Source of the DNA: Kofleriaceae bacterium
GTDB lineage: Bacteria; Myxococcota_A; Polyangia; Haliangiales; Haliangiaceae
Assembly (NCBI GenBank): GCA_046597055.1
Contig: JBKJLC010000121.1
Location: 1 to 32,948, forward strand
DNA: 32,948 bases
Reading direction: 5' to 3'
Shown here piece by piece: positions 4,025 through 30,387 of this stretch. Both the position numbers and the translations under genes were made by a program. The number at the start of each line of letters is the position of its first letter. The stretch's first letter is position 1. Under the pieces are notes generated by a model that did no database searches, was not told the origin of the DNA, and saw only the letters and a list, made by a program, of their open reading frames with translations.

Positions 4025-5545
4025 ATGTCATCCAACCCGCCGACGCGCGTGCCTACACCCCCGCCCGATTGCTCGTGTGACGACCACGATCTGGCGCCGC
4101 TGGCGCCGCCGGTGGAGCCGCAGGATCCGACCACCCTGCCGTTCCGGAAGTCGCGCGGGACCTCGCCGCCGCCACTGCGCGACTACGATCCGGACACGCT
4201 GCCCGACACCGAGCCGGAGCACGCGCCGTTCGATGCCGCGCCCGCACCTGCGCCCGAGCGTCCTCGCCGCAACGTCAGCCGGCGCGGCTTCACCGCGGGC
4301 CTCGGCGCCGCGCTGCTGGCGGCCCCGTTTTTGGGCCTGCTCACCCGCGCCAATCGCGCCAGCGCCGCGACCGGGCGCACCGCCAAGCGGCTGGTCGTGT
4401 TCTTCACGCCCAACGGCACGGTGCCCGCGCAGTGGCGCCCGACCGGCACCGAGACCGCGTGGAGCTTCCCGGCCGGCAGCATCCTCGAGCCGCTCGCCCC
4501 CCATAAAGACAAGCTGGTGGTGATCGACGGCCTGCAGTTCACCAACAGCACCAACCACGAGGGCGGCATGGCCGCGATGCTCACCGGTGGCGGCGGGGCC
4601 GGCACGGCGTCGCGCGGCATGTCGGTCGACCAGCACGTCGCCGCCGCGATCGGCGGCACCAGCCGGCTGCGCTCGCTCGAGCTCGGGGTCCAGACCTCGG
4701 CCTGGGGCGGCAGCGTGCAGACCCGGATGAGCTACACCGCGCCCGGCCAGTACGCGCCGCCCGACGACAGCCCGCGCGGCGTGTACGGCCGCGTGTTCGG
4801 CGCCGCCACCCCGACCCCCGGCGGCGCCGACCTGGTGCTGGCCCGCCGGCGCAGCGTGCTCGACGCGGTCAAGGGCGACCTCGGCGATCTGAAGAGCCGG
4901 CTCGGCACCAGCGCGCAGGTCAACCTCGAGCAGCACCTCGAGTCGCTGCGCGAGCTCGAGCGCGGCCTCGGCGGCGGCGCCACCTGCAGCGGCGGCACGC
5001 CGGTCGCCGACCTCCCGCTCTACGACAACGCCAACTTTCCCGCGATCGGCAAGACCCAGATGGATCTGCTGGTCGCGTCGCTCGCGTGCGGCTCGACCAA
5101 GGTCGCGTCGCTGCAGTGGGCGCACACGGTCGCGCCGCACGTCTTCACGTGGCTCGGTCAGTCCGACAGCCACCACAGCCTGTCGCACATGGACGACGGC
5201 AACACCGCTGGCGTCGCCAGCTTCGTGAAGGCCGAGCGCTGGTTCAGCGAGCAGTTTGGCTACCTGATCGGCAAGCTGGCGGCGACCCCCGATCCCGCCG
5301 GCGGCACGATGCTCGATTCGACCCTGGTCGTCTGGTGCAAGGAGATGGGCGACTCGCGCGCCCACGTCTGCACCGACGTCCCGTTCGTGCTCGCCGGCGG
5401 CGGCGCGTTCAGCCCGGGCCGCTACCTCAAGGCGAGCGGCGCCTCGCACACCAAGCTGCTCGTCTCGATCTGTCAGGCGATGGGCCTGACCAACACGTCA
5501 TTCGGCGATCCCGCCACGGGCTCGGGCCCGCTGGCCGGGCTGTGA
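4025..5545 (+). CDS. DUF1552 (HXXSHH-type) domain protein with Tat-like signal
   Basis: SRRGFTAGLGAALLAAPFL twin-arginine-like motif, KRLVVFFTPNG, SVDQHVA..LRSLELGV, HHSLSH, TLVVWCKEMGDSRAH..VPFVLAGG. Confidence 0.88.
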   Translation: MSSNPPTRVPTPPPDCSCDDHDLAPLAPPVEPQDPTTLPFRKSRGTSPPPLRDYDPDTLPDTEPEHAPFDAAPAPAPERPRRNVSRRGFTAGLGAALLAAPFLGLLTRANRASAATGRTAKRLVVFFTPNGTVPAQWRPTGTETAWSFPAGSILEPLAPHKDKLVVIDGLQFTNSTNHEGGMAAMLTGGGGAGTASRGMSVDQHVAAAIGGTSRLRSLELGVQTSAWGGSVQTRMSYTAPGQYAPPDDSPRGVYGRVFGAATPTPGGADLVLARRRSVLDAVKGDLGDLKSRLGTSAQVNLEQHLESLRELERGLGGGATCSGGTPVADLPLYDNANFPAIGKTQMDLLVASLACGSTKVASLQWAHTVAPHVFTWLGQSDSHHSLSHMDDGNTAGVASFVKAERWFSEQFGYLIGKLAATPDPAGGTMLDSTLVVWCKEMGDSRAHVCTDVPFVLAGGGAFSPGRYLKASGASHTKLLVSICQAMGLTNTSFGDPATGSGPLAGL

Positions 5546-5553
5546 GGAACAAC

Positions 5554-5964
5554 ATGCGCATCCAGAACCTGCTCGTCATCGCCACCGCCTCGCTGCTGCT
5601 CGCCTGCGTCGAGGAGGCCGACACCGCGTCGTGCGCGCCCGACACCGCGACCTTCCAGGCGCAGGTCTGGACCCCGGTGCTGTCGAGCCGCTGCGCCAGC
5701 TGCCACAGCGCCAGCGGGCTCGCCGCCAACTCCGACTTCGTGCTCGCGGCCTCGGCGATGGCGGCCAACCTCGAGACCAGCAGCCAGATGGCGAGCGCGA
5801 GCGAGGGCGGCGAGTCGCTGCTCGTGCTCCGCGCGATCGGCACCAACCACCCGGGCGGCGCCATCGTCGTGGCGGGCTCGCCCGAGCACGGCGCGCTGGT
5901 CGACTTCGCCGCCAAGGTCCGCGGCACCCCCGGGGCCTGCGACGACCCGCCGGCGGGCGAGTGA
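5554..5964 (+). CDS. Small monoheme cytochrome c lipoprotein (136 aa), paralog of the N-terminal domain of the next gene
   Basis: GAGGA RBS then ATG 5554; lipobox LLAC; CASCH heme motif; NHPGG candidate distal His. Confidence 0.8.
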   Translation: MRIQNLLVIATASLLLACVEEADTASCAPDTATFQAQVWTPVLSSRCASCHSASGLAANSDFVLAASAMAANLETSSQMASASEGGESLLVLRAIGTNHPGGAIVVAGSPEHGALVDFAAKVRGTPGACDDPPAGE

Positions 5965-5969
5965 GCGCC

Positions 5970-7892
5970 ATGCGCATCGCGCACCTGATCGCGGTCGCGA
6001 CCACCGGGCTCCTGGCCGCCTGCGTGGGCCAGATCGACAACAACGCGTCGTGCCCGCCCGACACCGAGACCTTCCAGGCCCGGGTGTGGGCCCCGGTGCT
6101 TTCGACCCGGTGCGCGACCTGCCACAGCTCGAGCGGGCTCGCCGCCAGCTCCGACTTCGTGCTCTCCGGCACCGCGATGCCGACCAACCTCGAGGCCTCG
6201 AGCCGGATGGCGAGCGCGAGCGAGGCCGGCGAGTCGCTGCTGGTGCTGCGCGCGATCGGCACCAACCACCCGGGCGGCGCGGTGCTCGTGGCCGGCTCGG
6301 CCGAGCACGCGGCGCTGGTCGCGTTCGCCGGCCAGGTCCGCGGCACCGCCGGCGCCTGCGACGACCCGGCGCTGTCGTGCGCCCCCGGCGATCCCGGCCC
6401 GCGCGTGCTGCGCCGGCTGTCGCGCGCCGAGTACGACGTCACGCTCCGCGACGTGTTCGGCGTCGACGCCCGCTACGCGCCGGCCCTGGTCGCCGACGTG
6501 GTCGTGCACGGCTTCGACAACAACTCCAAGGCCCTGGTGGTGTCGCCGCTGCTCGCCGAGCAGCTGCGCAGCGCGGCCGAGGAGGTCGCGGCGACCGTGG
6601 CCGCGGGTCCCGACCTCGCGTGCAACACCGGCGACGAGCCGGCCTGCGCGCGCGGGTTCCTCGCCGGCAAGGCGGCGCGGGTGTTCCGCCGCCCGCTCAC
6701 GCCGGCCGAGATCGAGCGGTGGATGGCGATCTACCAGGCCGGCCGCGAGACCCCGGCGGTCGGGATGACCGCGCACCGCGCCGGCATGGAGCTGGTGGTC
6801 GCCGGCCTGCTGCAGGCCCCGTCGTTCCTGTATCGCACCGAGCTGGGCGAGCCCGCCGCCGACGGCCGGCACGCGCTGACCTCGTACGAGATCGCGTCCG
6901 AGCTGTCGTACTTCCTCTGGGCCGCGCCGCCGGACGACGAGCTGTGGCAGGCCGCCGAGCGCGACGCGCTGCGTGACCCCGCCGCGATCGCGACCCAGGC
7001 CCGCCGGCTGCTGGCGTCGCCGCGCGCGCGGGCGTCGATCGATCGGTTCACCGCTCAGTGGCTGGCGATCGACCAGCTCGACACCGTCGCCAAGGATCCG
7101 ATGACGTACCCCGAGTTGACGCCGTCGTTGCGCAAGGCGATGGGCGAGGAGGCGCGCCGCATGGTCGCCGAGGTCGCCCAGGGCGGTGGCACCTTCGCCG
7201 ACCTGCTCGCGTCCGATCACACCTGGGCCAACGCCGAGCTGGCCCGCTTCTACGGCCTGCCGGCGCCCGGCACCGTCGACGGCAGCGGCTTCGGTCGGGT
7301 CACCAGCACCGGTCGCACCGGCCTGCTCGCGACCGGCGCGGTCCTGACCACCCACGCCCGCGCGTCCTCGTCGTCGCCGATCCACCGCGGCAAGCTGGTC
7401 CGCGAGCGCTTCCTCTGTCAGGAGCTGCCGCCGCCGCCGCCGGGCCTCAACGCCCAGCCGCCCGCGGTCGATCCGACCAAGACCACCCGTGAGCGCTTCG
7501 CCCAGCACGCCGCCGACCCGGCCTGCTCCGGCTGCCACGACCTGATGGATCCGGTCGGCTTCGCCTTCGAGCGCTTCGACGGCATCGGCCGCCGCCGCGA
7601 GACCGAGGGCGGCCGGCCGGTCGACGACAGCGGCGAGGTCCGCGGCTCGGTCGCCTCCAACGGCGCGTTCAGCGGCACCGGCGGCCTCGCCGAGCACCTG
7701 GCCGCGAGCAACGAGGTCCAGACCTGCTTCACCCGCCAGTGGGTGCGCTGGGCCTACGCCGTCGAGGAAGACGCGCAGACCGCGTGCCTGGTCGACGAGG
7801 TCGGCGCCGCGTTCGTCGCCGGCGGCGGCAGCGTCGAGGACCTGCTGGTCGCGCTGACCCAGACCAGCCACTTCCGGTTCCGCGCGAACTGA
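5970..7892 (+). CDS. DUF1592/DUF1588/DUF1595/DUF1587 family cytochrome c lipoprotein
   Basis: Lipobox LAAC, CATCH, LRRLSRAEYDVTLRDVFG, LLQAPSFLYRTE, LTSYEIASELSYFLW..PPDDEL, SSPIHRGKLVRERFLC, CSGCH..MDPVGFAFERFDGIGR. Confidence 0.9.
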   Translation: MRIAHLIAVATTGLLAACVGQIDNNASCPPDTETFQARVWAPVLSTRCATCHSSSGLAASSDFVLSGTAMPTNLEASSRMASASEAGESLLVLRAIGTNHPGGAVLVAGSAEHAALVAFAGQVRGTAGACDDPALSCAPGDPGPRVLRRLSRAEYDVTLRDVFGVDARYAPALVADVVVHGFDNNSKALVVSPLLAEQLRSAAEEVAATVAAGPDLACNTGDEPACARGFLAGKAARVFRRPLTPAEIERWMAIYQAGRETPAVGMTAHRAGMELVVAGLLQAPSFLYRTELGEPAADGRHALTSYEIASELSYFLWAAPPDDELWQAAERDALRDPAAIATQARRLLASPRARASIDRFTAQWLAIDQLDTVAKDPMTYPELTPSLRKAMGEEARRMVAEVAQGGGTFADLLASDHTWANAELARFYGLPAPGTVDGSGFGRVTSTGRTGLLATGAVLTTHARASSSSPIHRGKLVRERFLCQELPPPPPGLNAQPPAVDPTKTTRERFAQHAADPACSGCHDLMDPVGFAFERFDGIGRRRETEGGRPVDDSGEVRGSVASNGAFSGTGGLAEHLAASNEVQTCFTRQWVRWAYAVEEDAQTACLVDEVGAAFVAGGGSVEDLLVALTQTSHFRFRAN

Positions 7893-25728: not shown

Positions 25729-26658
25729 TCAGCTCGGCCGCACGTGCGACGCGAGCCGGGCCGCGAACCGACCGGCGATGTCGGTGCCGGCGCGGGCGTC
25801 GAAGCCGAGGAACATCGGCGACGGGTTGAGCTCCAGGAAGCGCAGGGTGCCGTGGGCGTCGCGCTTGATGTCGAGCCCGGTGAAGCGCAGGCCGATGACC
25901 TCGGCGGCGCGCACGCACTGCGCCTGGACCTCGGCCGGCAGCGTGATGGCCTCGCAGCCGTCTTCGTTCTGGCGGAAGTCGAGCGCCTTGGTGTCGATGC
26001 GGATCGCGGTGACGATCTCGCCGTCGAGCACGTAAACCCGGATGTCCTCGCCGGGGAGGAGCTCCTGGAAGGTGACCGGGGACGCGGCCAGGGTGTCGAG
26101 GCGCTCGTCGGTCAGATCGGCGGCGGTGAGCTCGCGGGTGGCGGCGCCGCCCGAGACCGGCTTGTAGGCGATGCGCCGGCCGTGCGCGAAGCGCCGGACC
26201 TCGGCCGGGTCGTTGGTCCAGCAGGTCGCCGGCACCGGCAGCCCGGCGGCCTGGAGCAGCCCGAGCTGGAACGGCTTGGTGACGCGGTGCTGGCCGGGGC
26301 TGTTGTAGAAGGGGACACCCGCCTCGTTCCAGCGATGGACCAGGCCCATGATCATGTCGGCGCGCTCGCGGTTGATCAGCGCGTTGCGACGCAGGTCGTC
26401 GGCGGTGACCGACGGGTCGGGCTCGGCGGTGATGATGCTCAGGCCGAGGTTGCGGACGTACACCGAGGCGGGGCGGAGCGCCGCGCCGTCGATCGAGATG
26501 GCGTCGAGCTGCTCACCGAGGGTGATGCGCAGCGAGCCAGGGAAAAGGGTCGCGTCGAGCGCGACGACCGGCGTCCCCATGGCCCGCAGGCGGTCCGCGA
26601 TCCCGGCGGCGTGAGCGTCCGCGGTGGGACCGATGATGACGACTGGGTGGGTGCTCAT
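25729..26658 (-). CDS. ATP-grasp graspetide synthetase (PsnB/MvdD/RimK-like omega-ester ligase)
   Basis: GGAG RBS then MSTHPVVIIG; KPFQLGLLQAAGLPVPATCWTNDP, YKPVSGG, FQELLPGEDIRVYV, DFR motif, FTGLDIK, FLELNPSPMF; 28 nt downstream of a precursor. Confidence 0.92.
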   Translation of the reverse strand: MSTHPVVIIGPTADAHAAGIADRLRAMGTPVVALDATLFPGSLRITLGEQLDAISIDGAALRPASVYVRNLGLSIITAEPDPSVTADDLRRNALINRERADMIMGLVHRWNEAGVPFYNSPGQHRVTKPFQLGLLQAAGLPVPATCWTNDPAEVRRFAHGRRIAYKPVSGGAATRELTAADLTDERLDTLAASPVTFQELLPGEDIRVYVLDGEIVTAIRIDTKALDFRQNEDGCEAITLPAEVQAQCVRAAEVIGLRFTGLDIKRDAHGTLRFLELNPSPMFLGFDARAGTDIAGRFAARLASHVRPS

Positions 26659-26686: not shown

Positions 26687-26920
26687 TCAGCTCTCGGTGC
26701 CGCCGCCTTCTTCGCCGATCGCGAGGGTCGTGTACTCGCCGCCGCCCTCCTCGCCGAGGGCCTGGGTGGTGTAACCGCCGCCGCAGCCACCCTCTTCGCC
26801 GAGCGCGAGGGTGGTGAAGACGGGCTTCTTGTCGTTCTTGCCGCCGGTGACGAGGCCGAGGTCCTCGATGAAGAGCTTGCGGGTGGTGGTCGTGGAGGGG
26901 TGGGTGGTGGGCTTGCGCAT
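26687..26920 (-). CDS. Plesiocin-type graspetide precursor A1 (77 aa, 3 cores)
   Basis: MRKPTTHPSTTTTRKLFIEDLGLVTGG|KNDKKPVF TTLALGEE GGCGGGY TTQALGEE GGGEY TTLAIGEE GGGTES. Confidence 0.93.
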   Translation of the reverse strand: MRKPTTHPSTTTTRKLFIEDLGLVTGGKNDKKPVFTTLALGEEGGCGGGYTTQALGEEGGGEYTTLAIGEEGGGTES

Positions 26921-26932
26921 AGACGAACCGGC

Positions 26933-26951
26933 CAATACAGGATGCGTGCCA
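26933..26951 (-). promoter_or_regulatory. Sigma54-like promoter of precursor A1
   Basis: TGGCACG-CATC-CTGTATTG: exact -24 box, variant -12 box; repeated before precursor A2. Confidence 0.65.
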
Positions 26952-27107
26952 CCTGAGGCCCGTATCCCCTCGCGCGCTTGGCGCGTCCGGCGCGACGCAA
27001 CCTGCGCAGCGATGCGCGACCTGCGCACGGCTCGTGCGTCAGTTGCGCACCGACGAGCAGGTGGGTTCGGACCGGGAGCCAGGTCCTGGGACTGGCATTT
27101 CCCGCGG

Positions 27108-27341
27108 TCAGCGCTCTTCGCCGCTGTCCTCGCCGTAGGCCATGGTGGTGCCGCCGCCGTCCTCCTCGCCGATCGCCATGGTGGTCTCGTAGGACTCCTC
27201 GAGCAGCAGCCGCGTGGTCGTGCAGTCCTCCTCGCCGAGCGCGAGCGTCGTGTACCCCGAGCGAGCGCCGGTGACGGCACCGAGGTCCTCGATGAAGAGC
27301 GTGCGAGGGGCGTGGGTCGACAGCTTGTCGTTCTTGCGCAT
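27108..27341 (-). CDS. Plesiocin-type graspetide precursor A2 (77 aa, 4 cores)
   Basis: MRKNDKLSTHAPRTLFIEDLGAVTGA|RSGY TTLALGEE DCT TTRLLLEE SYE TTMAIGEE DGGG TTMAYGED SGEER. Confidence 0.93.
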   Translation of the reverse strand: MRKNDKLSTHAPRTLFIEDLGAVTGARSGYTTLALGEEDCTTTRLLLEESYETTMAIGEEDGGGTTMAYGEDSGEER

Positions 27342-27351
27342 GGTCGTTCCG

Positions 27352-27370
27352 CAATACAGACGACGTGCCA
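27352..27370 (-). promoter_or_regulatory. Sigma54-like promoter of precursor A2
   Basis: TGGCACG-TCGT-CTGTATTG, identical to the A1 element apart from the 4-nt spacer. Confidence 0.65.
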
Positions 27371-27466: not shown

Positions 27467-27494
27467 TTGACATACCCCCGGGGGGTATTAGAGT
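27467..27494 (+). promoter_or_regulatory. cop operon promoter with CsoR operator
   Basis: TTGACA-N16-TAGAGT-N6-ATG; perfect dyad ATACCCCC-G-GGGGGTAT (27472-27488) fills the spacer, matching the C/G-tract operators of CsoR; csoR is in the operon. Confidence 0.88.
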
Positions 27495-27500
27495 CGGGTC

Positions 27501-27734
27501 ATGTCCCAGCCATTCGCGCTGTCCATCGAAGGCATGCACTGCGGTGCGTGCGTGCGCCGGGTGCGCGCCGCGCTCGACAAGATCCCGGGCGTGACGGTCG
27601 GCGAGGTCGCGATCGGCAAGGCGGCCGGCACGCTCGAGACCGCGTCGCTGGAGGCGGTGGCCGCGGCGGTCACCCAGGCCGGCTACCCCGCCACGCCCGC
27701 GCCGACGACCCACCGCGCGCCCGACGCGTCATGA
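27501..27734 (+). CDS. copZ: Heavy-metal-associated (HMA) copper chaperone
   Basis: LSIEGMHCGACVRRV..AVTQAGY; first gene after the CsoR operator. Confidence 0.88.
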   Translation: MSQPFALSIEGMHCGACVRRVRAALDKIPGVTVGEVAIGKAAGTLETASLEAVAAAVTQAGYPATPAPTTHRAPDAS

Positions 27735-30091
27735 CGGCGACCCCGGCCCACCCGGCCGCGCGCGGCACCCAGCTGACGCTGCCGGTCGGCGGCATGACCT
27801 GCGCGGCGTGCCAGGGCCACGTCGAGAAGGCGCTGCGCGGCCAGCCGGGCGTGGTCGACGCGGTGGTCAACCTGGTGACCCGGAGCGCGCGGGTCTCGCT
27901 CGCGCCCGATGCCCGCGCCGAGCAGCTGGCGCCGGCGCTGGTCGCGGCCGTCGAGGCGGCTGGTTATGACGCCGAGCTGCCTCGCGACGACGAGGATGTC
28001 GCCGCGGCTCAGCTCCGCGACGACGCGGCGCGCGCCCGCGAGGTCCGGGACCGGGCCTGGCGCGCGACGATCAGCCTGGCCGGCATGCTGGTGCTGATGT
28101 TCGCGGGCGCGCCGCTGATGGCCCACGCCGGCCACGCCGTCGGCGGCGACGTGCTGACCCGCGCGCTGGCCCGGCTGGTCGATGGGCCGGCCCACGCGCT
28201 GGCGCCATGGCTATGGTCGATCGATCCGCAGACGCTCGCGGCGACGCTGGTGGCGGCCGGCGCGGCGATCGCGGCGGTGGTGGCGTACCCGATCTGGTCG
28301 CGCGGCCTGCGCGCGTTCGTGCGGCGTCAGCCCGACATGAACGCGCTGGTGACGCTCGGCGCGGTGGCCGCGCTGGCGATGTCGGTGGCGACCGTGGTGG
28401 CGCCGGCCAGCGCGCACGCGGGTGGCGGGCTCTACGTCGAGGCGGTGCTCGGCATCTTCGGCTTCGTCCTGCTCGGCAACGCCCTCGAGGCCAGCGCGCG
28501 CCGGCGCACGACCAGCGCGCTGACCCGGCTGGCGTCGCTGGCGGCGCCGCGCGGCCGGGTCGAGACCGACGACGGCGAGCGCGAGCTGGCGGCGGCGCTG
28601 CTGCGCAAGGGCGACCTGCTGGTGATCCGCCCGGGCGAGCGGATCGCCGCCGACGCGATCATCGTCGACGGCGAGAGCGAGGTCGACGAGGCCCTGGTCA
28701 CCGGCGAATCGATGCCGGTGCACCGGCGTCCCGGCGATCCGCTGATCGGCGGCACATTGAACGGGACCGGTCGGCTGCGCGCGCGCATCGTGGCGGTCGG
28801 TGCCGGCTCGACCCTGGCCCGGCTGATGCGGCTCCTGCGCGACGCCCAGGGCGAGCGCGCGCCGATGCAGCGGCTGGCCGATCGGGTCAGCGCGGTGTTC
28901 GTCCCGGCGGCGCTGGTGCTGGCCACGCTGACGCTGCTCGGCTGGTGGGTCGGCACCGGCGACCTCGCCCGCGCCGGCGTCCACGCCGCCGCGGTGCTGG
29001 TGATCGCGTGTCCGTGCGCGATGGGACTCGCGGTCCCGACCGCCGTGATGGTCGCGACCGGCCGCGCGGCCCGGATGGGCGCGCTGGTGAAGGGCGGCGA
29101 CGTGCTCGAGCGCCTGGCGGCCGCCCGCGTGGTCGCCTTCGACAAGACCGGCACGCTCACCCGCGGCGAGCCGGAGGTGATCGCGATCGAGGTCGTGACC
29201 GGTGACCGCGACCAGCTCGTGCGGCTGGCCGCGGCGATCGAGGCCGGCAGCGAGCATCCGCTCGCGCGCGCGGTGCTGGCCGCGGCGCGCACGGCCGGTG
29301 TGACGGTGCCCCCGGCGACCGAGGTGGTCGCGCGCCTCGGCGCCGGGGTGGTCGGCCGGGTCGACGGGGTCGTGGTCGGCGTCGGCAGCCCGCGACTGGC
29401 GTCCGAGCTCGGCGCGGATCTGGCTGCGGCGACCGAGCTCGCCGACACGATCGCCGCGACCGGCGCGACGCCGGTGCTGGTGTTCGCCGGCGGTGTGCTG
29501 CAGGGCGGCCTGGCGCTCCGCGATGCGCTGCGGCCCGAGGCCCCGGCCGCGGTCGCCGCGTTGCGCCGGCTCGGGCTCGAGGTCGCGCTCATCACGGGCG
29601 ACCGGGCCGAGCCGGCCGCGCGGGTCGCCGCCGCGGTCGGCATCGCCGACGTCGCCGCCGGCATCGATCCGGCCGGCAAGGTCGCGCGGGTGCAAGCGCT
29701 GGCGGCGCGCGGCGTGATCATGGTCGGCGATGGCATCAACGATGCGCCGGCGCTGGCCGCGGCCACCGTCGGCGTCGCGATGGCGAGCGGCACCGATGTC
29801 GCCGCCGCCGCCGCGCACGTCGGTCTGCTCCGGCCCGACCTCGGCGTGGTGCCGGAGCTGGTCGCGCTGGCCCGGGTCGCGGTGCGCACGATGCGCCGCA
29901 ACCTCGGCTGGGCGCTCGGTTACAACGCGCTCACGATCCCGGTCGCCGCCGGCGCGCTCGAGCCGTGGGGCATCGCGGTGTCGCCGATGCTCGCGAGCGC
30001 GCTGATGGCGCTGTCGTCGGTGAGCGTGGTGGTGTCGAGCCTGTTCCTTGGCGGTGCCCGCCGGCCCGCTCCGCCGGGCGGTGGCTCGTGA
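27731..30091 (+). CDS. copA: Cu(I)-translocating P1B-1 type ATPase
   Basis: GMTCAAC, TGES, ACPCAMGLA, DKTGT, SEHPLA, GDGINDAPAL, YN and MALSS motifs; ATGA overlap with copZ. Confidence 0.95.
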   Translation: MTATPAHPAARGTQLTLPVGGMTCAACQGHVEKALRGQPGVVDAVVNLVTRSARVSLAPDARAEQLAPALVAAVEAAGYDAELPRDDEDVAAAQLRDDAARAREVRDRAWRATISLAGMLVLMFAGAPLMAHAGHAVGGDVLTRALARLVDGPAHALAPWLWSIDPQTLAATLVAAGAAIAAVVAYPIWSRGLRAFVRRQPDMNALVTLGAVAALAMSVATVVAPASAHAGGGLYVEAVLGIFGFVLLGNALEASARRRTTSALTRLASLAAPRGRVETDDGERELAAALLRKGDLLVIRPGERIAADAIIVDGESEVDEALVTGESMPVHRRPGDPLIGGTLNGTGRLRARIVAVGAGSTLARLMRLLRDAQGERAPMQRLADRVSAVFVPAALVLATLTLLGWWVGTGDLARAGVHAAAVLVIACPCAMGLAVPTAVMVATGRAARMGALVKGGDVLERLAAARVVAFDKTGTLTRGEPEVIAIEVVTGDRDQLVRLAAAIEAGSEHPLARAVLAAARTAGVTVPPATEVVARLGAGVVGRVDGVVVGVGSPRLASELGADLAAATELADTIAATGATPVLVFAGGVLQGGLALRDALRPEAPAAVAALRRLGLEVALITGDRAEPAARVAAAVGIADVAAGIDPAGKVARVQALAARGVIMVGDGINDAPALAAATVGVAMASGTDVAAAAAHVGLLRPDLGVVPELVALARVAVRTMRRNLGWALGYNALTIPVAAGALEPWGIAVSPMLASALMALSSVSVVVSSLFLGGARRPAPPGGGS

Positions 30092-30387
30092 AGCCGGCCG
30101 CTCCGCGCCGGCACGCGCACGGAGTCGAGCCGGCGACCAAGCAGAAGAACCTGGCGCGGCTGCGCCGCATCGAGGGCCAGGTGCGCGGCATCGCGCGCAT
30201 GGTCGAGGACGACCGCTACTGCATCGAGGTCCTCGATCAGGTGGCCGCGGTCGAGAAGGCGCTGCGCGCGGTCTCGGCCGAGCTGGTCAAGCACCACCTG
30301 CGCCACTGCGTCCGACACGCGCTCGCCACCGGCGGCGAGGCGGCCGAGGCCACCGTCGAAGAGCTGGTCGCGGTGCTCACCCGCTGA
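30088..30387 (+). CDS. csoR: Copper-sensing repressor CsoR/RcnR family
   Basis: RLRRIEGQVRGIARMVEDDRYCIEVLDQ..HHLRHC (Cys-His-Cys ligands); GTGA overlap with copA. Confidence 0.92.
   Translation: MKPAAPRRHAHGVEPATKQKNLARLRRIEGQVRGIARMVEDDRYCIEVLDQVAAVEKALRAVSAELVKHHLRHCVRHALATGGEAAEATVEELVAVLTR

What the first reader, a model, noticed from the sequence alone, without database searches (positions are those of the whole stretch)
26687..27260. Non-identical cores suggest a natural multi-target protease inhibitor
Seen: the residue after TT is L, Q, L in A1 and L, R, M, M in A2; TTRLLLEE also drops the usual Ala and Gly. Established, from memory and to be verified: plesiocin's TTLA[IL]GEE cores inhibit chymotrypsin/elastase through this Leu, and an engineered Leu-to-Arg swap gives trypsin inhibition. 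Inference: A2 natively strings chymotrypsin/elastase-type and trypsin-type hairpins on one chain, and A1 adds a Gln-presenting loop.
Basis: partly seen in the sequence, partly recalled or inferred. Interest (0 to 1): 0.78.

Follow-up and report, generated by a model that had tools for sequence, protein, structure and literature searches.

The report
Plesiocin-type peptides with mixed inhibitor loops
Two small repeat peptides sit beside the enzyme predicted to staple each repeat into a protease-blocking hairpin, and their repeats differ at the residue that likely picks the target protease; this mixing is real but common across the whole family, and the arginine repeat here is an atypical one that may not work.

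Summary
A1 (26687-26920) has L, Q, L after TT; A2 (27108-27341) has L, R, M, M, and its Arg core lacks the usual Ala and Gly. Both carry the LFIEDL leader and lie upstream of a PsnB orthologue (E 1e-81) with the catalytic and leader-binding residues kept, so this is a group 2 (plesiocin) graspetide cluster. A review confirms the plesiocin Ki values and the engineered trypsin-inhibiting Psn-LLLR.

Mixed cores are not special to this locus. Hydrophobic plus Lys/Arg occurs in 26 of 175 and 60 of 122 precursors in two sets, including a natural L,L,L,K chain in Nannocystis pusilla. Across the family, radical change concentrates at this one position (132 of 154; 326 of 409) and uses protease-specificity residues (Q, K, R, F, Y, E) while avoiding V, I, P. 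That supports natural multi-target inhibitors at family level, but pN/pS is 0.78, not above 1.

A2's Arg core is a weak example: 66 of 67 other Arg cores keep the Gly it lacks. Trypsin inhibition by A2 is about 0.3 likely. No activity was tested.

The parts
27356..27370 (-). sigma-54-like promoter motif upstream of A2 (-24 box perfect, -12 box imperfect); function inferred
   Evidence: consensus from PMC7910581
27108..27341 (-). precursor A2, 77 aa, four cores (residue after TT: L, R, M, M)
   Evidence: 45 homologues besides itself, including PsnA2
27282..27299 (-). A2 leader motif LFIEDL (macrocyclase docking site)
   Evidence: same motif as PsnA2 14-19
27264..27269 (-). A2 Gly-Ala, predicted double-glycine-type leader cleavage site
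   Evidence: sequence; GG or variant described for about half of graspetide precursors; inferred
27228..27251 (-). A2 core 1, TTLALGEE (Leu)
27195..27218 (-). A2 core 2, TTRLLLEE (Arg; lacks Ala and Gly; preceded by a third Thr)
27162..27185 (-). A2 core 3, TTMAIGEE (Met)
27126..27149 (-). A2 core 4, TTMAYGED (Met; Asp as second acid)
26937..26951 (-). sigma-54-like promoter motif upstream of A1, same form as that of A2; function inferred
26687..26920 (-). precursor A1, 77 aa, three cores (residue after TT: L, Q, L)
   Evidence: matches PsnA2 14-38 in PDB 7DRM, E 2e-4
26858..26875 (-). A1 leader motif LFIEDL
26840..26845 (-). A1 Gly-Gly, predicted leader cleavage site
   Evidence: sequence; inferred
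26792..26815 (-). A1 core 1, TTLALGEE (Leu)
26747..26770 (-). A1 core 2, TTQALGEE (Gln)
26708..26731 (-). A1 core 3, TTLAIGEE (Leu)
25729..26658 (-). ATP-grasp macrocyclase B, 309 aa, PsnB orthologue; starts 28 nt after the A1 stop
   Evidence: Pfam RimK E 3e-11; TIGR04187 E 2e-25, below its cut-off; PsnB 7DRM E 1.2e-81, next PDB hit 4e-13; key residues located

Best explanation
This is a plesiocin-type (group 2 graspetide) cassette of two precursors and one PsnB orthologue, predicted to make two chains of ester-stapled hairpins that likely inhibit several proteases, with the residue after TT likely choosing the target. Shown: genes, leader, cores, enzyme orthology, and family-wide variation concentrated at that residue. 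Inferred from plesiocin: B binds LFIEDL, phosphorylates the Glu side chains and joins Thr2-Glu7 and then Thr1-Glu8 in each core; a double-glycine peptidase-transporter encoded elsewhere would remove the leader and export the chain. Each hairpin would then present its first loop residue as P1. Leu and Met cores would block chymotrypsin-, elastase- or subtilisin-like enzymes. The Gln core would address another specificity. The Arg core would add trypsin-type inhibition only if B closes it despite the missing Ala and Gly (about 0.3). The Ala-x-Gly part of the loop is likely held by the cyclase, leaving P1 free to be retuned.
For: B matches PsnB at E 1.2e-81 and keeps the equivalents of Arg72, Arg101, Arg213, the DFR loop, Leu196 and Phe203. 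Both precursors carry LFIEDL and TTxxxxEE, the features PsnB needs. Engineered Psn-LLLR gains trypsin inhibition; the only position that is Leu in all four PsnA2 cores is the one after TT (P0010). In microviridin L, position 5 sets specificity: Leu elastase, Arg trypsin, Tyr chymotrypsin, Met subtilisin. Cores with exactly one radical departure have it at this position in 132 of 154 cases and 326 of 409. Of 173 non-Leu/Met residues there, Q 65, K 26 and E 15 exceed a one-mutation expectation (5.9, 9.3, 0), while V 4, I 2, T 4 and P 0 fall far below it (31, 45, 19, 21). In the larger set the position holds L, M, Q, F, R, K, Y, E in that order. A2's best homologue P0002 also has an Ala/Gly-less second core with a basic residue (Lys) at this position.
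Against: No activity or modification was measured. pN/pS at this codon is 0.78 (bootstrap 0.64-0.95; 74 precursors with DNA), so there is no formal sign of positive selection. PsnB orders the AIGEE part of the core, and Arg72 binds the Gly backbone: this explains freedom at the first loop position without any selection by proteases, and puts A2's Arg core at risk. Arg cores elsewhere keep the Gly in 58 of 58 and 8 of 9 cases; cores lacking both Ala and Gly are 10 of 731 and 18 of 951. Arg was rarer than the one-mutation expectation in the first set (9 against 19.7). Four relatives have Lys-Pro in their odd core (P0100, P0107, P0126, P0127), which should not suit trypsin (established knowledge). 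In a study of a natural group 2 precursor with non-identical cores (RcpA), the graspetides tested inhibited elastase and, for one, chymotrypsin, with no trypsin inhibition reported (its loop residues were in a supplement I could not read). The favoured residues are also simply long side chains unbranched at C-beta, which a cyclase or turn preference could explain.
Confidence: 0.55

Rival explanations
1. Ordinary Leu/Met-type plesiocin. The variant cores are tolerated passengers; TTRLLLEE is a degenerate repeat that stays open or gets one ring and acts as a spacer, even a trypsin-cleavable one.
For: pN/pS below 1 at the variable codon; the cyclase docks on AIGEE; the Arg core lacks the Gly kept in 66 of 67 other Arg cores; non-consensus motifs of RcpA were only partly cyclised.
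Against: Drift should yield V, I, T and P, which are nearly absent, rather than Q, K and E. The odd core keeps both Thr, both Glu and the 4-residue spacing while its loop codons changed. P0002 has a similar odd core with Lys at the same place.
Confidence: 0.3
2. The hairpins form, but their natural role is not protease inhibition (for example signalling or metal binding next to the copper-export genes).
For: No natural target is known for any plesiocin in the passages I read; copZ and copA lie directly beside the cluster.
Against: In 12 of 16 same-genus genomes the M16 peptidase gene abuts copZ-copA with no cluster between, so the copper genes are only the insertion site. The acidic residues are consumed by ring formation. 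The group 2 products that were assayed inhibit proteases.
Confidence: 0.1
3. The Arg core is an assembly or frameshift artefact, or the cassette is silent and decaying.
For: The genome bin has 7.6% contamination; the odd loop lies in a short CTG run.
Against: Identical in contigs of two samples; by hand, the two shifted frames of the codons do not give a canonical core; all three frames are intact with GC3 of 0.92-0.95; the promoter-like motif is kept before both precursors.
Confidence: 0.05

Closest known systems
Plesiocin, PsnA2/PsnB of Plesiocystis pacifica (group 2 graspetide; PDB 7DRM-7DRP)
   Same: LFIEDL leader, tandem TTxxxxEE cores, one ATP-grasp macrocyclase with the same key residues. 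P. pacifica also encodes a second LFIEDL precursor with atypical cores (P0132).
   Different: PsnA2 has Leu after TT in all four cores. Here the residues are L,Q,L and L,R,M,M; one core lacks Ala and Gly and one ends in ED.
Engineered bifunctional plesiocin Psn-LLLR (Lee et al. 2020, PMID 31644266; seen only through review PMC10125368)
   Same: Leu-type and Arg-type cores on one chain.
   Different: As its name implies, Psn-LLLR changes only the one residue, in the last core. A2's Arg sits in core 2 in a rewritten loop. Closer natural counterparts are Nannocystis pusilla P0007 (L,L,L,K), Enhygromyxa salina P0048 (L,K,L,L) and locus L117 (Leu plus two TTRALGEE cores).
RcpA/RcpB of Rheinheimera (group 2 graspetide, PMC11626197)
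   Same: Natural precursor with non-identical cores modified by one enzyme; graspetides of that study inhibit elastase.
   Different: Its cores differ in ring motif and loop length; no trypsin inhibition was reported; its cluster has a peptidase (RcpC), none lies beside the cassette here.
Microviridins (group 1 graspetides)
   Same: Ester-stapled serine-protease inhibitors in which one residue (position 5) switches the target.
   Different: Cage topology with a lactam, two ligases, different leader (PFFARFL); B scores only E 5e-6 to 6e-4 against their ligases.
Multi-headed canonical inhibitors (Bowman-Birk, potato type II)
   Same: Works like them if the reading holds: repeated constrained loops with different P1 residues on one chain (search listing; otherwise recalled).
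   Different: Disulfide-bonded plant proteins; no homology.

Membership tests
Group 2 graspetide (plesiocin type) | ATP-grasp macrocyclase orthologous to PsnB next to the precursor | tested here: met
   E 1.2e-81 over residues 6-302; next PDB hit 4e-13; 28 nt from A1
Group 2 graspetide (plesiocin type) | PsnB functional residues (Arg72, Arg101, Arg213, DFR 233-235, Leu196, Phe203) | tested here: met
   R69, R97, R207, DFR 227-229, L190, F197 of B; read from the alignment with a 20-residue chain offset inferred from Arg213 and DFR
Group 2 graspetide (plesiocin type) | LFIEDL leader motif | tested here: met
   exact in A1 and A2
Group 2 graspetide (plesiocin type) | TTxxxxEE core motifs | tested here: met
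   6 of 7 cores exact; the seventh ends in ED
Group 2 graspetide (plesiocin type) | Two Thr-Glu macrolactones per core in hairpin connectivity | not testable with these tools
   needs co-expression and MS/MS; doubtful for TTRLLLEE
Group 2 graspetide (plesiocin type) | Leader removal and export machinery | tested here: inconclusive
   none beside the cassette; six Peptidase_C39 matches elsewhere in the genome, link unknown
Natural multi-target protease inhibitor | Different residues at the specificity position on one chain | tested here: met
Natural multi-target protease inhibitor | Positive selection on the specificity codon (dN/dS above 1) | tested here: not met
   pN/pS 0.78, 95% 0.64-0.95; a rough pairwise estimate over diverged repeats
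Natural multi-target protease inhibitor | Different domains inhibit different proteases | not testable with these tools
   needs Ki measurements
Microviridin (group 1 graspetide) | TxKxPSDxE-type core, PFFARFL leader, two ligases | tested here: not met
   motifs absent; one ligase, far below the MvdC/MvdD cut-offs

The most novel reading that the evidence does not exclude
Plesiocin-type graspetides are a bacterial family of natural multi-headed protease inhibitors: a fixed cyclase-docking scaffold carries one hypervariable P1 residue (L, M, Q, F, R, K, Y, E), so single chains cover chymotrypsin-, trypsin-, Gln- and Glu-specific proteases at once, and A2's rewritten Arg loop is a second, Gly-free trypsin-type hairpin that the same enzyme closes. 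Nature would have built the engineered bifunctional plesiocin many times over.
Probability: 0.3. Interest if true: 0.65.

Novelty: new variant of a known kind. Interest (0 to 1): 0.42.

Why it matters
The locus alone is one more plesiocin cluster. What following it exposed matters more: the residue that engineers changed to make plesiocin bifunctional is the family's natural hot spot, with Gln the commonest alternative. If confirmed, this gives a ready library of ring-locked inhibitors with predictable targets, a clue to which proteases these bacteria face, and a test of how far a PsnB-type enzyme tolerates loop changes. Surprise for a specialist is moderate, because P1 switching in microviridins and multi-headed inhibitors are known.

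Tried and rejected
Pfam and NCBIfam have no model for either precursor. Copper link rejected by synteny. Frameshift or assembly error rejected. A formal positive-selection signal was sought and not found. Expression: no RNA holder listed, no evidence either way; runs X4 and X5 gave only short or partial pieces, and runs with small shares were not interpreted. A profile of A2 plus three odd-core relatives listed 11 new proteins among the best 120 of 315 and none had an Arg-Leu-Leu-Leu-like core. A test of whether mixed chains outnumber pure Lys/Arg chains was not run, because the search seeds require Leu/Met cores. No complex or fold prediction was sent: unmodified peptides cannot show ester rings, and Arg would dock in trypsin whether inhibitor or substrate. 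An attempt to confirm from a paper that squash-type trypsin inhibitors tolerate bulky residues after Arg failed, so that argument is dropped. The sigma-70 scan found only the copZ promoter. The 47 loci mostly held single-core, Cys-containing precursors or none. The primary papers on bifunctional plesiocin (PMID 31644266) and the Ramesh 2021 survey (PMC8688276) are not held, and the PNAS supplement was unreadable; any of them, or the 2020 JACS survey I did not try, may already note the natural variation. Earlier-findings look-ups by sequence and by place returned nothing.

Full report
Observation. On the minus strand lie two 77-residue frames, A2 (27341-27108) and A1 (26920-26687), followed 28 nt later by a 309-residue gene B (26658-25729). 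A1 has three cores with L, Q, L after TT. A2 has four with L, R, M, M; the Arg core is TTRLLLEE and the last ends in ED. A six-frame scan of the genome (8.4 Mb, 72% GC, 303 contigs) found clustered cores only here, and B has no close paralogue. Contigs of run X1 (possibly the source) and X3 (same study, another sample) match both precursor genes with no difference.

Identity. B matches PsnB (PDB 7DRM) at E 1.2e-81, against 4e-13 for the next structure. The PsnB preprint (10.1101/2021.03.09.434688, parts 1-3 of 5 read) names LFIEDL as the required leader, TTxxxxEE as the core, the inner ring as forming first, and Arg72, Arg101, Arg213, the DFR loop, Leu196 and Phe203 as key residues. All have equivalents in B (numbering offset inferred). 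A1 aligns with the PsnA2 peptide of 7DRM. Every sequence-testable mark of a group 2 graspetide is met; ring formation is untested. No peptidase-transporter lies beside the cassette; six C39 peptidase matches occur elsewhere in the genome.

Context. B was not found in any of 36 same-family genomes searched, 16 of them from the same genus, and in 2 of 60 relatives overall. The precursor profile hit 2 of 400 other genomes of the phylum. In 12 of 16 same-genus genomes the M16 peptidase gene directly abuts copZ-copA; of the other four, two loci end at a contig edge, one shows no copZ within 1.5 kb and one is a paralogue. The cassette is therefore likely an insertion and unrelated to copper. Both precursors are preceded by TGGCACG-N4-CTGTA, a perfect sigma-54 -24 box with an imperfect -12 box (consensus in PMC7910581, passages). 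My pattern was fitted after seeing the sites, so its chance figure (2 found, 0.09 expected) is optimistic. It was seen within 60 nt of 0 of 35 other precursors. The shared upstream DNA suggests A1 and A2 arose by duplication. Named precursor relatives are myxobacteria; the host is probably similar (inference).

The recalled background. A review (PMC10125368, passages) gives plesiocin Ki 16 nM for elastase and 7.5 nM for chymotrypsin, no trypsin inhibition, and Psn-LLLR with Ki 5.4 nM (chymotrypsin) and 130 nM (trypsin). The primary paper is not held. That the changed Leu is the one after TT follows from PsnA2 (P0010), where no other position is Leu in all four cores, and agrees with my recollection of the abstract. 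In microviridin L, position 5 switches the target between elastase, trypsin, chymotrypsin and subtilisin (PMC7823629, passages).

Is the mixing unusual? No. Set 1 pooled 122 proteins (the latter listed the best 120 of 1134) with 84 multi-core precursors mined from 129 loci (one search kept the best 80 of 256), own locus excluded, and reduced 206 to 175 at 90% identity, 731 cores. The residue after TT differs within 108 of 175 chains; 26 mix hydrophobic with Lys/Arg, 6 with Arg, 35 with Gln. At 75% identity, 22 of 103 mix hydrophobic and basic. Among 55 of the 74 locus-derived precursors with an ATP-grasp gene in the fetched DNA, 11 mix hydrophobic and basic and 21 hydrophobic and Gln. Set 2 was the 124 proteins new (best 150 of 950 listed); 122 have two or more cores, 951 cores in all; it includes A1 itself, overlaps set 1 a little, and has no genomic context. 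There 111 chains are non-identical, 60 mix hydrophobic and Lys/Arg, 39 with Arg, 49 with Gln, and 32 carry all three classes. Cultured examples are Nannocystis pusilla P0007 (L,L,L,K) and Enhygromyxa salina P0048 (L,K,L,L). Ranking by a Leu-rich profile should understate the mixing.

Is that position special? Yes. Cores with one radical departure from the consensus have it there in 132 of 154 and 326 of 409 cases. Within-chain radical difference is 0.28 against 0.07, 0.10 and 0.06 at the other three loop positions (set 1), and 0.48 against 0.20, 0.18 and 0.05 (set 2). The search seeds fixed all four loop positions alike, so this is not a seed effect. The residues used are not those of drift: Q 65, K 26, E 15 against 5.9, 9.3 and 0 expected from one mutation of Leu/Met codons, and V 4, I 2, T 4, P 0 against 31, 45, 19 and 21. 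These are counts of cores, not independent events, and kin were not corrected for. Against the reading: pN/pS at this codon is 0.78 (0.64-0.95), no higher than at the third loop position (0.81), where changes are conservative; Arg was under-represented in set 1 (9 against 19.7); and PsnB orders only the AIGEE part, so freedom at this position and a dislike of branched residues could come from the enzyme.

The Arg core of A2. It keeps TT, EE and the spacing, and its loop is rewritten. For it: the top homologue P0002 has TSKQLFEE in the same place, and other relatives also carry odd second or third cores. Against it: Arg cores keep the Gly in 58 of 58 and 8 of 9 cases; cores lacking both Ala and Gly are 10 of 731 and 18 of 951; four odd cores have Lys-Pro, unsuited to trypsin; the third Thr leaves the register open; and non-consensus motifs of RcpA were incompletely cyclised (PMC11626197, passages and sections 11 and 13). 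I put trypsin inhibition by modified A2 at about 0.3. The Gln core of A1 is canonical in scaffold and is the family's commonest variant (65 of 731), so it likely closes; its target is unknown.

Mechanism committed to (0.55). B staples the cores into bicyclic hairpins; the leader is cut at GG (A1) or GA (A2); each hairpin presents the residue after TT as P1; the two chains together inhibit more than one protease class. The main rival (0.3) is a Leu/Met inhibitor with passenger repeats.

Novelty. Searches for plesiocin or graspetide (40 of 70 listed), plesiocin + trypsin + bifunctional, TTxxxxEE, multicore microviridin and graspetide + hypervariable + specificity determinant showed no report of a natural Leu plus Arg/Lys plesiocin or of this position's hypervariability. 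I also read passages of PMC8939145, PMC13097080 and PMC9576775 without finding it. The key subscription papers were not available and may say it. Verdict: a real, new member of group 2 that shows a natural, family-wide variant of an engineered idea.

Noticed in passing
window 26937-26951 and 27356-27370 (-): The same sigma-54-like motif lies 14-16 nt before each precursor start, with no obvious ribosome-binding site between; suggests separately controlled, short-leader transcripts.
   Followed up: partly
proteins P0135-P0258: Long precursors (150-550 aa) with up to about 20 cores mix many residues after TT (for example P0136, P0148, P0165); better cases of possible multi-target chains than this locus.
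   Followed up: partly
L008, L009, L020-L029, L031-L041, L043: A large group of PsnB relatives pairs with single-core, Cys-rich precursors (TTxACGEE or TTxACCEE), often about 2 kb upstream of the ligase gene; genes between were not examined.
   Followed up: no
P0002, P0100, P0107, P0125, P0126, P0127, P0132, P0133: A recurring class of odd cores keeps TT and EE but rewrites the loop, often with aromatic residues or Lys-Pro.
   Followed up: partly
L015, L017, L047, L052, L058, L060-L063: The closest B relatives (59-64% identity) pair with mostly Met multi-core precursors that carry a leader-like motif at both ends.
   Followed up: no
window 27501-30387 (+): copZ, copA and a small frame resembling a CsoR-type repressor (by eye), with a sigma-70-like promoter at 27467-27494; ordinary copper-export operon.
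   Followed up: partly
window 4025-7892 (+): Three adjacent frames that look like the secreted DUF1552/DUF1592-type proteins of myxobacteria (recalled, not searched); a stretch near 5500-6100 appears duplicated within them.
   Followed up: no
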